Assembly: GCA_951406725.2 (NCBI GenBank)
Contig: OX597820.1
Coordinates: 35,960,001 to 36,024,000 of the forward strand
Direction: 5' to 3'
DNA from: Octopus vulgaris
Lineage: Eukaryota
Length of the DNA: 64,000 bases
The position numbers are program-made. The first letter of the stretch is position 1. Each line of letters starts with the position of its first letter. This document shows positions 9,128-48,200 of the stretch, in pieces.

Positions 9128-12100
9128 GCACACATATACATTCGTGTGTGTGTGTGTGTGTGTGAGTAATTCTTTTGGAGGGAATAGTGGATCTCGAAGC
9201 AGACAATAAAACTATGAATGATACGGTGTAAGTGTACACTGGACAGAAAAATTTGATGGTTACCCGTAGGACACAAACTCATAGCTTCTGTAAACATGAT
9301 GGGCGGTCTGCCATTTGGTCAAAGCAACCGTTCGAATCCTGCGGTCCTTTTCAGAAGCTTTATTTTTAAAAGCAAAACTTATATGTTGTTGGCATCTTAA
9401 GAATTCATAAACTTTCGACAGAACGTTAAATAGTTCTTTTTTTTTTTTTTTTTTTTAGAATAGTGGAAATCGGAGCAGATGATAAACCGATGTTTACATG
9501 CTATTATTTTATAGCTTTATTATCGGATCTTTTCGGTTGGTTTGAACGGCAATTTTTAGCATAATTTCTAGGTAACTAAAAAATTTTAAACTTCGTATAC
9601 TGGTAGAATGTGTTTATAAAACATCTTTTTCTCTTGGCTTTATTGAGAAAATTCTGTAGTTTGTAAGATATTTGTTGTTTATTTTCTTCAATTTCTGCAA
9701 TTTCAACCAATCACTGACGTCTATTGAGGTAAAAAAAAACATTCTGTGCTGTATGAATATGTCCCTCGTTTAAGAAACAGATTGGGTTTATTTACATTTG
9801 TGAAGTAAAAAAGATACCCTTCCCCCCACTCCTAACCCTAACTAACCTTACCTAACTCTAACCCTAAAACAGATTGAAATGCATTAGATCGATACTAGGG
9901 CCATGATTATGGGTGACAATTTCATATGACACCGTTAGAAAAAACTGCTGTTCAAACCGAAAAGATCCTTATTATCTGTTTCGAGATCTTCTATTCAAAA
10001 AATAAATAAATAAACAATTATTTCACGCTCTCTCGCAAGTGTCTGAGTTCTTATGATGTCAACTATATAAGGGTGGGCTGAAAATTTCATAGGCTGACTA
10101 TGAGGGTGTGATGTCAGAGGTGTGAAATTTTGCACGCATTTCAAGTTTTTGTATTCATAACTGCATTGTTTCTTTCCAGGTAAACTCACATCTGATTGTT
10201 CAGAGAAGACTTCAATAATAAATAACAGCGACTTCTCTTGAAAATGGACAAAATTTGGCATAGTGGTGTTATAAGGTACATGCATAAAAATGGTTTAACC
10301 CCCAATGACATTCATGCTGACTAGGTTTACTACTTTAGGAAATGGCGCTCCTGTTTTATCAACCATACAAAAGTGGACAGTTGTATTTCGGAAGGGAAGT
10401 GAGAGTCTTAAAGATGACCGGAATGTCACTAACCAAAAGGTTGTGTGAAGTGGCCCGAATTGACGCTTAACAACAATAATTACTTATTGAAGGGCGATAA
10501 CTTAGTTTCACCACCCTACTTTTTCTCTTTTTTTTTCTGTGAGGCGAGGGAATTTTACAAAAACATAACAAAAGATATCCTCGTTCTCTAAACACTATTA
10601 CTTAGAGTTACCTCCCTCGTTAACTCTCTTTTTTATTCATTTTAATATTTTCAAATGTGATTATTGTTTTCCCGGTTTTCCTTTATTTGTCTCCTCTGAG
10701 ACCAGACGGAAATAAATTGTAAGTTACTTCATTTTTACATCTTCTGTGGCTTTTATGCTTTAAAGAAAACTTTCGTTATTGTTTTAATAATGATTGTAAG
10801 TAACCATGCGACGACTGTTTGTTTTTTCTAGTTACGAATATATTGTTCTCTTCTTGTTTATTTATTTAAATCACTGAACAGAATTTTCATCTTGTATTTA
10901 CATTTTTTTGTTTTTGCTGGTAATTTCACTTGAATACCTGCACCAATATGGACATCTTGTACCAAAACTGCTCATCCGTGGGCTCCATTTGTTTCTTGTT
11001 TCTTGGAATGGTGGCTTTCTGTCAGATCTTGCCATCGGAAGACAACAGCTGGTAACCCCTTATTCAGTAAACAACAGATGATGTCCCTTAATTCAGTAGG
11101 CAACAACTGGAGGGTCTCCCTGAATCTAGACAATTGATAACATAGTCAAAGTTAGCAGTGTTGTTCTAATGGACTAAAAGAGCCTTCTTTCTTATTTTAT
11201 TTTCTTCTTACATTTCTCCTTCTCCATATTCTTCTCTCTCTCACACACACACACTATATATATATATATATATATATAGCCTTACTGGAACGTGAAAAAA
11301 CATTCGAGCGAGGTCGTTGCCAGTGCCGCTGGGCTGGCTCCTGTGCAGGTGGCATGTAAAAAAACACCATTTGAGCGTGGCCGTTGCCAGTACCGCCTGA
11401 CTAGCCCTCTTGCCGGTGGCACGTAAAAGCAACACTACACTGTTGGAGTGGTTGGCGTTAGGAAGGGCATCCAGCTGTAGAAATTCTGTCAGATCAGATT
11501 GGAGCCTGGTGCAGCCATCTGGTTCGCCAGTCCTCAGTCAAATCGTCCAACCCATGCTAGAATGGAAATCGGACGTTAAACGATGATGATGATTTTATAT
11601 ATATATATATATATATTTGCAGTAAAAAGGTAGCTTAATCCTTTAGCATTCAGATTATTCTGTCAAATATAATGCTTATTTATTTACATTGTTTGAATTA
11701 GTTATTGCATTATCTTGTAGCTTTGAGATTTTTATGTGATTGTTTATATTTTTAGAGTGACTTTGAAGTGTAGGTATAAGAGACCAGATCTGGCCAGTTT
11801 GAACATAAAACTAATAGAATATTTGTGCTGGGTATGGCCTGTATAAATGCTATGGGTTAATGTAACATTACTAAAACCTTCACAAATTCTGAAGTTTTAT
11901 TTTATTTTTTAATTCTCTCTATTTTTTTTTTTTTTTTTTTCAGTTAATCGAAAATCTTCCAAAATGCAAAGAACCAAAAGAACGTCTCGTTTCTTCAACC
12001 AGAGAGAAGAAGAACTCAGTGATGTTTCAGACATTTCCTGCCCAGATATGGACATTTGTAAGTCAACAGTGAAGAAAAGTGATCAAAAGAGAAAGTAAGT

Positions 12101-45225: not shown

Positions 45226-48200
45226 CCAATGGAAAAATTTTCAATAAGCTAGTGCGTCAAACAAAAATATCTTGCATTTTCATTCTAATTGAGGCATCCA
45301 AGATATATCATTGCTAATAAATTATGGGATGATCACAATTGGAATGTCTTTCATCATAGGTTTATGGCATCGGGTCTGACCTAAAGAGAAACACCATGGA
45401 CTAAGAATTGTTTCTGTTTAACTCTCGGCAAACCCTATTTGAGTAAACTTATTCCATCATAGATTTACAGGATCAAGTCTGAGCAGAGAAGTCATTGTTT
45501 AACCCCAAGTTTAGACAGACTTTCTTCATCATGGGTTTACAGGATCAAGTCTCGCCTGGCGATAAACATCAGGAGCAAAGAGATAGTTGTTCTTTAACCC
45601 TAAGTCAATCCTGTTTGAGCATTCCAGCCTTAACCATCTTGTCTTTTTGTATATTCCAGGCATAACATATTGTCCAAAGGCATTCTATCCAATTAATTTA
45701 ATGACTCTCCCAATTTGCTGCTGAGATAACTATTCATTTAATGTTTAATTTTGTTGCAGGTGTGATACCATGGACACAGGAGGAAGATGCCATTATTTCA
45801 TCAACAGATGAGCATCAATTTAAAGACATTCTTCAAAAGCATGGGCATGTTGCTGTAGCCCAAAGACTTCAATTTCTGGATAATTTGTAAATGTTCCCTC
45901 ATGGTAAGTGATTCTATTTCATTGCAAAAAGTATATTTGTCATTAGAACAAAGGAGACTTTATACAGTTGCTCGGCCTGCTAGAAAATCATACCCTTCTG
46001 CCTTAAATCACACCCTACTTTCTTAAAGAAAAGTACATTGAACAGAACACTCTGATATACATGAAGGTATGATCGCTGGTTGAAATGCCTTTGATGATAA
46101 GTCAGATGAATCGGGACTGGCCAGGGTCTAAATGACAACTTTTAATTGCAATATACTTACGTAATCATTAAGATGGTGAGCTGGCAAAATTGTTGGCACA
46201 CTGAACAAAATGCTTAGCAACATTTGGTGTCCTTATGTTCTGAGTTCAAATTCCACTCAAGTTCATCATCATCATCATCATCATTATCATCATTGTTTAA
46301 TGTCCGCTTTCCATGCTAGCATGGATTGGACGATTTGACTGAAGTCTGGCAAACCAGATGGTTGCACCAGGCTCCAATCTGATCTGGCAGAGTTCCTACA
46401 GCTGGATGCCCTTCCTAATGTCAACCACTTCGAGAGTGTAGTGGGTGCTTTTATGTGCCACCAGCATGAGGGCCAGTCAGGCGGTACTGGCAACGGCCAC
46501 GCTCAAATGGTCCTTGCTTTTCATCCTTTCAGTGTCAATACAATAAGTACCAGTTAACTACTGGAGGTGTGGGTGGGGGCAATGTAATCAACTTACCCCT
46601 ACTTCCCTGATCTTGCTAGCCTTGAGCCAAAATCAGAAACCAATATACTTACATAATCAAGTGTGATTATCTGTGAGACTGGGTATGGTGGCTTTAGTCT
46701 ATGATTTGCTGTTGTCATTTAGGCCCAAGTTAGCCTGGTCAAAGCCAAGAATGGCAAAGCATGAGTCATATTCTTCCTGTTGAATAACATCTGGAAGATA
46801 AGACTCATCCACAGTATTACTTGAATCCACATCCTCAATTCAAGTGTGATGTCAGTTGATTTGTATTGGATTGTGACATGGAGATATACAAAAGCCTCTC
46901 TAAAGAGGATTCAGAACTTAATCAACCACTACCTCTAAGGGATATTCAGAATCCATTGACTGAAGAAAATCAACAGCATAGCTCTGTGGAAACAAACCCA
47001 GCAGTCTCTTGTTGACATGTGGACCAAGCATAAAACCTAGCACTGGATTTGGTATACCTGCTAAAGGCTACATTTCAACTTCATCAGGTTATCTTGGTAG
47101 AACCCACAAGCTATATAAGGAAGAGATGAGAGCCAGGAAACTCCTTGAAAATGAAGTGAGAGCTTGATGGAGCTGGGGCTACAACTGGAACAGAAATCCC
47201 AGGAGAGAGATGAATAGAGGGAATTTGTCAAGGGCCTAATGAAAAAATAACAAGTTTGATGAAACAAACACCTGATCGTGCGAATGTGAGCCACAACTAA
47301 TTAATCATATTTCCAAGAATGACATAACCTGAACTACATCATACAGTGTGGATTTTAGGGTGGTTTGGATGCTATTTCCAGCAGGGTATGTAACTATGTA
47401 GAAGCTCTTACATATCGATCAGGATCAATATAAATCAGGGGGAAAAAAAGCAATCAATGAGAACTAACACATCTGAGATTGTTAATGAAAATAGAAACAT
47501 GGATTTAGCAACAATTGTAGAATTCTTTTAGTATTAAGTTTTGTTTTGGTGTTTAGTTTATGTTTTTGTTCTTTTATTCTTTTGCTGTATTCAGTCAGTG
47601 CACTGTGGCCATGCTGGGGCTCTGCCTTCAAGGGATTTACCTAATCATATTGTCCCCAGTATTAATTTCAGTCTCTTATTTGTTTTATTGATCTATATTA
47701 TAGGAGCAGACATGGATGTATGGTTAAGAAGTTTGCTTCCCAACCACATGGTTTCAGATTCAGTCTCACTGCATGGCTAATTAAAGCCTTGGGAGTGAAT
47801 TTGGTACACGAATACTGAAAGAAGCCTGTCACGTGTGTGTGTGTGTGTGTCCTTGTCTTGACATCACATAATAGTTAAGTAAGTGAGTATTAGTGTTGTA
47901 CAAACAGTTTCATTCACCTTCAGTATTCAGCAAAATATGTCTGGCCTGGGGAAAATTTTGCCTTGCTTGGAAACAATTGGGGCCTGGCAACAGTAAAGGC
48001 ATCCAGCTGTAAAAAATCTGCTTCTTCCGACTCTCTCCAACCCATTCAAGTATGGAAAAGTGGACATCATCATCATCATCATGTAGTAGTAGTAGTAGTA
48101 ATAGTAGTAAATACTACTCCACATTGTATAAAGGTAGGCAAGAGTGGCTGGAAAGAATGATGGTTTTTGAAAAGATGTCAGAGTATACTATCAAGATACA

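What the first reader, a model, noticed from the sequence alone, without database searches (positions are those of the whole stretch)
11944..45903. Cephalopod-type Rap1/TERF2IP with only one Myb and the RCT domain, apparently lacking the N-terminal BRCT
Seen: the spliced 467-aa ORF places the Myb domain only ~44 residues after the ATG, followed by a long low-complexity linker and the RCT. Known: yeast and vertebrate Rap1 start with a BRCT domain, and budding yeast has two Myb repeats. Inference: this is a BRCT-less Rap1 or a derived paralogue, implying a modified shelterin. The HSWQS motif has become HTSQS, losing a conserved Trp in the Myb core. The 20 nt before the ATG are open in frame, so upstream coding exons cannot be excluded. 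However, I see no BRCT-like exon in 1-11.9 kb, and that region keeps its CpGs as intergenic DNA would.
Basis: partly seen in the sequence, partly recalled or inferred. Interest (0 to 1): 0.7.

Follow-up and report, generated by a model that had tools for sequence, protein, structure and literature searches.

The report
Octopus Rap1 gene lacking BRCT domain
This is the octopus gene for the telomere protein Rap1, and in octopuses and cuttlefish it appears to have lost the front domain that in mammals grips the Ku repair protein to stop chromosome ends being joined.

Summary
Window 11944-45890 (+) carries nine GT-AG coding exons summing to 1401 nt, or 467 codons. They match the public Octopus vulgaris TERF2IP protein at 100% outside splice junctions.

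Domains are one Rap1-type Myb, split by an intron, then a long acidic/Ser-rich linker and a Rap1 C-terminal domain. No BRCT is found in the protein, in 134 upstream ORFs, or in 2814 ORFs of the whole window. Profiles from the same seven lophotrochozoan species do find the Myb and RCT exons.

All five named cephalopod species lack the BRCT. Seven of seven named non-cephalopod lophotrochozoan orthologues have it. The cephalopod sequences form one clade, so a single loss before octopuses and cuttlefish diverged is the best reading.

- A public model splices two upstream exons in frame into 11944. They add 41 residues and no domain.

BRCT exons beyond the window remain unexcluded. The joined spliced model was neither built nor searched.

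The parts
3774..3863 (+). Upstream exon U1 of the public O. vulgaris model (P0186): an ATG in a strong context (ACCATGG) plus 30 codons. Its coding status is doubtful.
   Evidence: tblastn of P0186 residues 1-30 at 100%. Sequence, GTATCC donor and in-frame TAA at 3717-19. No Pfam family at E <= 1. Unique within the window.
10706..10718 (+). 13-nt micro-exon U2 of the same public model, flanked by CCAG and GTAAGT.
   Evidence: Pattern search; flanks. It accounts for residues 31-34 of P0186 and the first base of codon 35.
11944..12094 (+). Exon A. It follows a poly-T + CAG acceptor. The conserved start ATG is at 11964. It encodes 43 codons plus 2 nt: a basic stretch, a conserved acidic Ser-rich motif, then a basic run leading into the Myb.
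   Evidence: Alignments of the cephalopod N-termini.
14613..14730 (+). Exon B: first half of the Rap1 Myb domain, including the Arg that aligns with human R133.
   Evidence: Pfam Myb_Rap1 profile positions 1-33, E 0.17 on the exon alone. Seven-species Myb HMM E 5.5e-12. Alignment to human TERF2IP 8rd4_D.
19867..20323 (+).
   Evidence: Pfam Myb_Rap1 positions 36-59, E 0.0033. Myb HMM E 6.2e-12. Exon-wise homologue search.
25144..25295 (+). Exon D: linker containing a conserved SDYD-type motif.
   Evidence: invariant columns.
27108..27219 (+). Exon E: Ser-rich stretch followed by a basic helix (the DRRSRL region).
   Evidence: invariant columns.
36585..36713 (+). Exon F: linker.
41880..41938 (+). 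Exon G: start of RCT helix 1.
   Evidence: helix 369-390 in the model.
44638..44752 (+). Exon H: middle of the RCT.
   Evidence: Seven-species RCT HMM E 4.5e-4. Alignment to human RCT 3k6g.
45760..45890 (+). Exon I: end of the RCT plus the TAA stop at 45888-90.
   Evidence: Pfam Rap1_C E 1.2e-7, 32.1 bits, above the cut-off.
57679..57715 (+). Alternative 3' exon of the public O. vulgaris model. It is reached from an internal donor at 45886|45887 that bypasses the stop codon. It supplies the last base of the Leu codon and 12 of the 20 added residues. It is probably not part of the conserved protein.

Best explanation
The locus is the single Octopus vulgaris orthologue of the shelterin subunit Rap1/TERF2IP. 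It spans about 34 kb, or about 42 kb with the 5' exons of the public model, and its introns are full of SINE and LINE copies.

The protein starts about 45 residues before a single Rap1-type Myb domain and ends with the RCT. By homology with the human RAP1-TRF2 complex, the RCT should dock it onto the cephalopod TRF protein at telomeres (inferred, not shown).

The ancestral N-terminal BRCT domain, present in other molluscs and in a brachiopod, was lost once, before octopods and cuttlefish diverged. The likely route is replacement of the 5' exons and promoter, so that translation now starts in what used to be the BRCT-Myb linker (inferred).

In mammals the BRCT is the part that binds KU70 and blocks LIG4 recruitment. 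Cephalopod Rap1 therefore keeps the telomere-docking module and the DNA-contact Arg of the Myb arm, but cannot work as that Ku-directed 'circuit breaker' in the mammalian way (inferred).
For: Gene structure and identity:
- Nine GT-AG exons give 467 codons.
- They match P0186 (O. vulgaris CAI9725467.1) at 100% outside junction overhangs. Exon C is 96% identical to O. sinensis XP_029638989.1.

Domains:
- Myb_Rap1 scores 37 bits and Rap1_C 28.3 bits on P0186, both above their cut-offs, with no BRCT at E <= 1.
- Exon by exon, Rap1_C passes on exon I, and the Myb_Rap1 halves fall on exons B and C.
- Alignment to human TERF2IP puts octopus 35-108 against human 122-196 and octopus 361-461 against human 296-396. 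About 87 N-terminal residues are therefore missing.
- The AlphaFold2 model has residues 45-125 at pLDDT 91-95, the RCT at 70-90, and residues 1-40 below 50. The best PDB fold match is the human Rap1 RCT-TRF2 complex 3k6g, E 1.3e-4.

Absence of the BRCT:
- 0 of 134 upstream + strand ORFs match a BRCT family.
- 0 of 2814 window ORFs match a BRCT HMM built from seven lophotrochozoan species; best E 1.5.
- Myb and RCT HMMs from the same seven species find exons B, C, I and H at 5.5e-12, 6.2e-12, 1.4e-8 and 4.5e-4.
- In leave-one-out runs, both 50-aa BRCT halves were recovered in 7 of 7 species at E <= 1.4e-6.

Comparative data:
- BRCT_2 is present at E <= 0.01 in 36 of 48 Myb+RCT relatives. This includes 7 of 7 named non-cephalopod lophotrochozoans: Lingula, Patella, Haliotis, Dreissena, Mytilus, Batillaria and Argopecten.
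- It is absent from all cephalopod proteins: O. vulgaris, O. sinensis, O. bimaculoides, Argonauta hians, Sepia pharaonis and the unnamed P0004.
- The stretches that some gene models add upstream of the shared Met are unrelated to one another.
- Two O. sinensis RefSeq accessions carry the identical 465-aa protein starting at that Met.
- The cephalopods form one clade at 100/100 support.

Function of the BRCT: it binds the KU70 vWA domain and occludes the LIG4 site, and R133 of the Myb arm contacts DNA (passages of PMC12221994). Octopus R46 aligns with human R133 and is nearly invariant.
Against: - The window holds only 11.9 kb upstream of exon A, and only 3.8 kb upstream of U1. Introns of this gene reach 9.4 kb, so a BRCT exon further upstream, or used only from an alternative promoter, cannot be excluded from this DNA.
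- All cephalopod evidence is gene models or unnamed transcript-derived proteins. I saw no read-level data.
- Exon A has a strong acceptor, and a public model does splice upstream exons in frame into it. The 5' end is therefore not settled.
- Gene models can lose BRCT exons. The Lottia model lacks the BRCT although Patella, its sister in the tree, has it. A frog and a hagfish model also look truncated.
- No cephalopod genome could be searched for a detached BRCT. Nautilus was not found in any search.
- TRF binding and the consequences for Ku are inference only.
Confidence: 0.75

Rival explanations
1. The BRCT is still encoded, on exons further upstream than the window (or upstream of U1), and is joined to exon A in some or all transcripts. 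On this view the BRCT-less proteins in databases are 5'-incomplete gene models or one of two promoter isoforms.
For: - Exon A follows a textbook acceptor, and the 20 nt before the ATG are open.
- A public model does add upstream in-frame exons.
- Introns here reach 9.4 kb.
- Other BRCT-less models such as Lottia and Hymenochirus look like annotation losses.
Against: - Five named species, annotated by different groups and pipelines, all lack the BRCT. So does the unnamed transcript-derived protein P0004, which starts with the homologous Met on a 1706-nt contig.
- The model with the longest 5' reach (P0186) starts at an ATG preceded by an in-frame TAA at 3717-19 and still has no BRCT.
- The upstream extensions of different species share no similarity. 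Conservation begins near the common Met.
Confidence: 0.13
2. This is a derived, BRCT-less paralogue, and cephalopods also keep a canonical BRCT-Myb-RCT Rap1 (or a detached BRCT gene) elsewhere in the genome.
For: - Word-based searches miss distant paralogues.
- Many of the 150 listed representatives are unnamed and could not be assigned to a taxon.
- The branch leading to the cephalopod clade is long, 1.73 changes per column.
Against: - The exhaustive profile search with the cephalopod Myb+RCT profile listed no named cephalopod protein other than this gene's own products among its best 150. The RefSeq proteomes of O. sinensis and O. bimaculoides are in the collection.
- The internal topology of the clade follows the species groups, as expected of an orthologue.
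Confidence: 0.08
3. In O. vulgaris the true product is the longer public model (528 aa). It would start at ATG 3774, with a 41-residue basic N-terminal extension and a 20-residue C-terminal extension reached by splicing past the stop codon. That would make it a species-specific variant, still without a BRCT.
For: - ATG 3774 sits in an ACCATGG context and is in frame through U1, U2 and exon A.
- The model is deposited as CAI9725467.1.
Against: - The extension is absent from the O. sinensis, O. bimaculoides and Sepia proteins.
- A 13-nt exon and a GTATCC donor are weak features.
- The 3' extension uses a donor inside the last sense codons. The source name 'SCAF11-like' suggests a read-through or merged model.
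Confidence: 0.2

Closest known systems
Human TERF2IP/RAP1 (PDB 8rd4 chain D, 1fex Myb, 3k6g RCT-TRF2)
   Same: - One Rap1-type Myb followed by an acidic linker and an RCT.
- Octopus 35-108 aligns with human 122-196, and octopus 361-461 with human 296-396.
- The best fold match of the model is 3k6g.
- The Arg equivalent to human R133 is kept.
   Different: - It lacks the first ~87-120 residues, which form the BRCT that binds KU70 (passages of PMC12221994).
- The gene has nine coding exons spread over 34 kb.
Rap1 of other lophotrochozoans (Patella vulgata XP_050415800.1, Haliotis, Mytilus, Argopecten, Dreissena, Batillaria, Lingula)
   Same: - Myb and RCT HMMs built from these seven species recognise the window's exons at 5.5e-12 to 4.5e-4.
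- A short D-x-S-P-type motif before the Myb aligns with the cephalopod N-terminus (a soft alignment).
- The Trp position is already variable: Ala in 5 species.
   Different: All seven carry an N-terminal BRCT_2 at E 7.7e-10 to 5.1e-5, five of them above Pfam's cut-off. No cephalopod protein does.
Engineered RAP1 delta-BRCT of mammalian studies (PMC12221994)
   Same: The domain content is the same: Myb, linker and RCT without the BRCT.
   Different: The laboratory deletion loses KU binding and the block on LIG4 recruitment (passages). Here the deletion is natural and shared by a whole animal lineage. A conserved acidic Ser-rich peptide sits at the new N-terminus.

Membership tests
Rap1/TERF2IP (metazoan shelterin subunit) | Rap1-type Myb domain (Pfam PF08914) | tested here: met
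   The domain is split by an intron. Exon B covers profile positions 1-33 (E 0.17) and exon C positions 36-59 (E 0.0033). On the identical public protein P0186 it scores 37 bits against a cut-off of 27.1. The seven-species HMM gives 5.5e-12 and 6.2e-12. pLDDT is 91-95.
Rap1/TERF2IP (metazoan shelterin subunit) | Rap1 C-terminal (RCT) domain (Pfam PF11626) | tested here: met
   Exon I alone scores 32.1 bits against a cut-off of 24.2. phmmer to human 3k6g gives E 1.6e-5. Foldseek to 3k6g gives E 1.3e-4, probability 1.00.
Rap1/TERF2IP (metazoan shelterin subunit) | N-terminal BRCT domain (Pfam PF16589), stated to be present in all metazoan Rap1 (PMC8653790, passage) | tested here: not met
   No BRCT family on the 7 exon ORFs at E <= 1. 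None on P0186, P0184 or P0153 at E <= 1, nor on P0001, P0003, P0004 or P0006 at E <= 0.01. 0 of 134 upstream ORFs. 0 of 2814 window ORFs, with positive controls. No hit on 11 of 12 cephalopod proteins at E <= 10; the twelfth scored E 3.0.
Rap1/TERF2IP (metazoan shelterin subunit) | Binds the TRF2-type protein through the RCT and localises to telomeres | not testable with these tools
   No cephalopod TRF sequence was in hand and no complex job was run. This is inferred only from the RCT homology.
Rap1/TERF2IP (metazoan shelterin subunit) | Orthology: one gene per genome, grouping with the Rap1 of related animals | tested here: inconclusive
   The cephalopod sequences form one clade at 100/100 with an internal split that follows the species groups. 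Deeper forks are unresolved: 8 of 17 inner branches are open. Copy number could not be checked without cephalopod genomes.
Budding-yeast type Rap1 (tandem Myb DNA-binding domain) | Two adjacent Myb-like repeats (Pfam PF09197 Rap1-DNA-bind) that bind telomeric DNA directly | tested here: not met
   P0001 and P0186 each show a single Myb_Rap1 stretch and no PF09197 hit. The local Myb HMM finds only exons B and C in the window.

The most novel reading that the evidence does not exclude
Coleoid cephalopods have protected their telomeres for a very long time with a Rap1 that cannot touch Ku through a BRCT. On this reading the Rap1-Ku 'circuit breaker', proposed to be ancient and broadly metazoan, is dispensable in a long-lived lineage of large animals. 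Alternatively, it has been replaced, for example by the conserved acidic Ser-rich peptide at the new N-terminus acting as a phosphorylation-dependent docking site for another repair factor.
Probability: 0.2. Interest if true: 0.7.

Novelty: new variant of a known kind. Interest (0 to 1): 0.45.

Why it matters
Rap1 is described as the most conserved shelterin subunit. Its BRCT and Myb domains are stated to occur in all metazoans (PMC8653790, passage).

A 2025 study gave the BRCT a precise job. It binds the KU70 vWA domain, occludes the LIG4 site and so blocks end-joining at telomeres. The authors argue that this interface is broadly conserved across Metazoa and predates the vertebrate Apollo pathway (PMC12221994, passages). 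The species listed for that analysis include no mollusc.

A whole animal lineage whose Rap1 naturally lacks the BRCT is therefore a natural deletion experiment. It asks whether cephalopods do without Rap1-dependent control of DNA-PK, or achieve it in another way.

My searches found no paper on this. 'cephalopod' + 'TERF2IP' gave 1 unrelated paper. 'octopus' + 'shelterin' gave 49 papers, and the 10 listed were unrelated because the term also matches 'sheltering'. 'Rap1' + 'telomere' + 'cephalopod' gave 3 papers, of which the 2 listed were not on this topic by title. Searches turned up only a general review, work on engineered yeast deletions and unrelated papers, judged by their titles.

The proteins themselves are already in public databases with only the Myb and RCT domains listed, so the raw fact is visible to anyone who looks.

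Tried and rejected
- CpG retention in 1-11.9 kb as evidence that the stretch is intergenic. The contrast is real (0.77 against 0.36). However, the public model puts exons U1 and U2 inside the CpG-rich stretch, and a LINE-like element fills 4-8 kb. I therefore do not count it for or against upstream exons.
- The last word-based homologue search, using a six-sequence cephalopod alignment. 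It returned only the 5 proteins already known, among 8000 scored candidates. No new cephalopod taxa and no Nautilus appeared.
- Looking up the high-scoring representatives P0008-P0023. They were mostly unnamed, or Daphnia and Limulus. None was a named cephalopod paralogue.
- A Pfam scan of 135 ORFs of 84 aa or more on both strands, looking for neighbouring genes. It found only RVT_1 at 39967-40449 and zf-RVT at 53336-53725.
- The supplement of PMC8653790 could not be read. Its species tables may show whether molluscan or cephalopod Rap1 was examined.
- Not attempted: a complex prediction, because no cephalopod TRF or Ku sequence was in hand.
- Not used: genome contigs, which holds only bacteria and archaea. 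Cephalopod genomes therefore stayed unchecked for a detached BRCT.
- The joined spliced model was not assembled or searched. Exons were searched one by one, and the public proteins P0001 and P0186 stood in for the whole.

Full report
WHAT IS THERE. The window is AT-rich (38% G+C) animal DNA full of microsatellites and short interspersed repeats. On the + strand, between 11944 and 45890, I read nine coding exons directly from the sequence and checked them by script:
- A 11944-12094, with the ATG at 11964
- B 14613-14730
- C 19867-20323
- D 25144-25295
- E 27108-27219
- F 36585-36713
- G 41880-41938
- H 44638-44752
- I 45760-45887, followed by TAA

All eight introns are GT...AG, the phases fit, and the coding total is 1401 nt = 467 codons. 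Exons were searched one at a time, and public database proteins stood in for the whole.

IDENTITY. Exon by exon against Pfam, the Rap1 Myb model is split across an intron. Exon B covers profile positions 1-33 (E 0.17) and exon C covers positions 36-59 (E 0.0033). Exon I alone passes the Rap1_C cut-off (32.1 bits against 24.2, E 1.2e-7).
- A search with exon C alone found three proteins among 1514 candidates: O. sinensis LOC115214083 (P0001, 465 aa, 96% identical), an O. bimaculoides isoform, and an Argonauta hians model.
- A cluster look-up added O. vulgaris CAI9725467.1 (P0186, 528 aa).
- tblastn of P0186 onto the window is 100% identical in every exon outside junction overhangs. The window is therefore O. 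vulgaris, and the gene is the one UniRef labels TERF2IP.

On P0186, Myb_Rap1 (37 bits) and Rap1_C (28.3 bits) both pass their cut-offs and nothing else of note appears. Against solved structures, octopus residues 35-108 align with human TERF2IP 122-196, and 361-461 with 296-396. An AlphaFold2 model of P0001, built from a 14-sequence alignment, has residues 45-125 at pLDDT 91-95, the RCT at 70-90, and residues 1-40 and the linkers below 50. Its best PDB fold match is the human Rap1 RCT-TRF2 complex 3k6g (E 1.3e-4).

IS THE BRCT REALLY MISSING? Within the window, yes.
- None of the 134 + strand stop-to-stop ORFs of 28 aa or more in 1-11990 matches a BRCT family at E <= 0.1.
- I built a BRCT HMM from the N-termini of seven named lophotrochozoan Rap1 proteins and ran it over all 2814 ORFs of 15 aa or more on both strands. 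The best E-value was 1.5.
- As a fair control, Myb and RCT HMMs built from the same seven species find exons B, C, I and H at 5.5e-12, 6.2e-12, 1.4e-8 and 4.5e-4.
- In leave-one-out runs the BRCT HMM recovers both 50-residue halves of the left-out species in 7 of 7 cases at E <= 1.4e-6. The best window ORF in those runs stays at E >= 0.57.

A conserved BRCT exon in these 64 kb would have been seen. The window cannot speak for DNA further upstream.

COMPARATIVE PICTURE. A profile of four cephalopod sequences was run against 1.84 billion representatives. It gave 395 hits at E <= 1e-3, of which the best 150 are listed.
- Of the 152 proteins then held, 48 carry both a Myb and an RCT by local HMMs at E <= 1e-3. 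The other 104 were set aside.
- Pfam finds BRCT_2 at E <= 0.01 in 36 of those 48, and 31 of the 36 are above the gathering cut-off.
- The 12 without it are P0001, P0003, P0004 and P0006 (cephalopod or cephalopod-like), Lottia (P0009), and P0047, P0062, P0063, P0076, P0078, P0088 and P0129.
- Names show that Lingula, Patella, Haliotis, Dreissena, Mytilus, Batillaria and Argopecten all have the BRCT, 7 of 7. Five are above the cut-off; Haliotis (24.7 bits) and Dreissena (23.9 bits) are just below.
- With the more specific local HMM, the nemertean Lineus (P0062) also has one (2.5e-12), and the hagfish model P0047 has part of one.
- Lottia lacks it although its sister Patella has it. This is probably a gene-model loss and shows that such artefacts occur.

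Every cephalopod protein, in contrast, starts only about 38-45 residues before the Myb. This holds for O. vulgaris, O. sinensis (two RefSeq accessions with the identical protein), O. bimaculoides (three models), Argonauta hians (a partial model), Sepia pharaonis (P0153) and the unnamed P0004. P0006 begins inside the Myb and is uninformative.

Some models add stretches upstream of the shared Met: 41 residues in O. vulgaris, 15 in Sepia and about 43 in Argonauta. These are unrelated to each other. Conservation begins near that Met, with a basic stretch and then an acidic Ser-rich motif.

In a maximum-likelihood tree of 20 sequences the cephalopods form one clade (100/100). It splits into a Sepia-like group (100/99) and an octopod group (98/96). 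Deeper forks are unresolved. The simplest reading is one orthologue and one loss before the two coleoid superorders diverged. That they are ancient sister lineages is recalled, not taken from a call.

THE 5' END. Exon A follows a run of T and a CAG, and the frame is open back to the acceptor. The public O. vulgaris model uses that acceptor. It starts at an ATG at 3774 in an ACCATGG context (exon U1, 3774-3863, GTATCC donor). It passes through a 13-nt micro-exon (10706-10718, CCAG|...|GTAAGT) and enters exon A in frame, adding 41 residues.
- An in-frame TAA lies at 3717-19.
- The extension has no Pfam match and is far too short for a BRCT.
- It is absent from the O. sinensis and O. bimaculoides proteins.

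I therefore treat it as probably 5' UTR that happens to be open, but this is not shown. CpG observed/expected is indeed 0.77 in 1-11943 against 0.36 in the introns, yet part of that stretch is intron in the public model. The 540 nt just upstream of exon A are copies of dispersed repeats, not an obvious promoter.

THE TRP. The first residues of exon C differ from the human motif at the Trp. In an alignment of named sequences that position is W in Lottia and Lingula, Y in Patella, and A in Haliotis, Dreissena, Mytilus, Batillaria and Argopecten. It is S, K or R in the six cephalopod sequences. The Trp was therefore already dispensable in molluscs, and the domain is still predicted to fold confidently.

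HOW IT PROBABLY WORKS. Shown here: the domain content, its conservation across coleoids, and the absence of a BRCT from the window and from all available cephalopod proteins. Inferred from homology: the RCT docks the protein on the cephalopod TRF, as in 3k6g, and the basic arm before the Myb can contact DNA. Its Arg aligns with human R133 and is nearly invariant.

From the literature (passages only, PMC12221994): the mammalian BRCT binds the KU70 vWA domain and occludes the LIG4 site. Deleting it abolishes KU binding and the block on LIG4 recruitment. The authors consider the interface broadly metazoan, on the basis of salmon, sea urchin, Nematostella and Trichoplax. PMC8653790 (passages) states that the BRCT and Myb are found in all metazoans. 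Its main text names no cephalopod, and its supplement could not be read. Cephalopod Rap1 is thus a natural delta-BRCT form. Either the Rap1-Ku brake is absent in these animals or another part supplies it.

VERDICT. This is a domain-loss variant of a well-known protein. It is already present, unremarked, in public databases. A recent mechanistic role for the lost domain makes it moderately interesting. The main open risk is BRCT exons outside the window or used by rare transcripts.

Noticed in passing
window 45886-45890 and 57679-57715: The public O. vulgaris model (P0186, which the source names 'SCAF11-like isoform X2') skips the TAA. It uses a GTAAAT donor inside the last Leu codon and joins an exon 11.8 kb downstream, adding 20 residues. 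This looks like a read-through or a merged gene model.
   Followed up: partly
window 11401-11616 and at least 16 other places (for example 17935-18152, 24803-25007, 46283-46476, 62019-62200): A dispersed repeat of about 200 bp (SINE-like) occurs on both strands at 71-88% identity. A second repeat at 11634-11851 has copies near 62352-62570 and 28196-28390.
   Followed up: partly
window 39580-41255 (+), 15738-16421 (+), 33453-34179 (+), 53336-54355 (-): Retrotransposon remains lie inside the introns and downstream of the gene. RVT_1 scores E 1.5e-19 at 39967-40449 and zf-RVT scores E 3.3e-6 at 53336-53725. The ORFs at 15738-16421 and 40566-41255 look alike by eye (both carry an 'RLRWYGHV' stretch).
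   Followed up: partly
window 27220-27341: The O. bimaculoides isoform X1 model (P0184, 378 aa) reads through the donor of exon E into the intron. The same open frame exists in this window. The O. bimaculoides models therefore lack the RCT because of how they were annotated.
   Followed up: no
window about 12000: CpG observed/expected drops sharply from 0.5-1.0 (1-12 kb) to mostly 0.1-0.5 (12-51 kb). It rises again at 55-58 kb. This may mark a boundary of germline methylation, but it does not coincide with the 5' end of the public gene model.
   Followed up: partly
window 22218-22496 (+): A 93-codon open frame in the intron between exons C and D has a protein-like acidic, helical composition. 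It has no Pfam match at E <= 1e-4 and does not match the Rap1 proteins.
   Followed up: no
proteins P0045, P0008, P0011, P0010: Rap1-type Myb domains also occur in multi-Myb proteins. P0045 (1428 aa) has a BRCT_2, four Myb_Rap1 stretches and an RCT. P0010 is a Daphnia 'Myb-like domain' protein. Most of the others are unnamed.
   Followed up: no
protein P0009 (Lottia gigantea) versus P0014 (Patella vulgata): The Lottia Rap1 model has no BRCT, whereas the Patella orthologue, its sister in the tree, has one. This is either an old gene-model truncation or a second, independent loss.
   Followed up: no
window 3429-3716, 8574-8990, 9008-9166, 18927-19113 and many others: Long (TA)n and (CA)n microsatellites produce spurious open frames rich in Tyr-Ile and His-Thr.
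   Followed up: no
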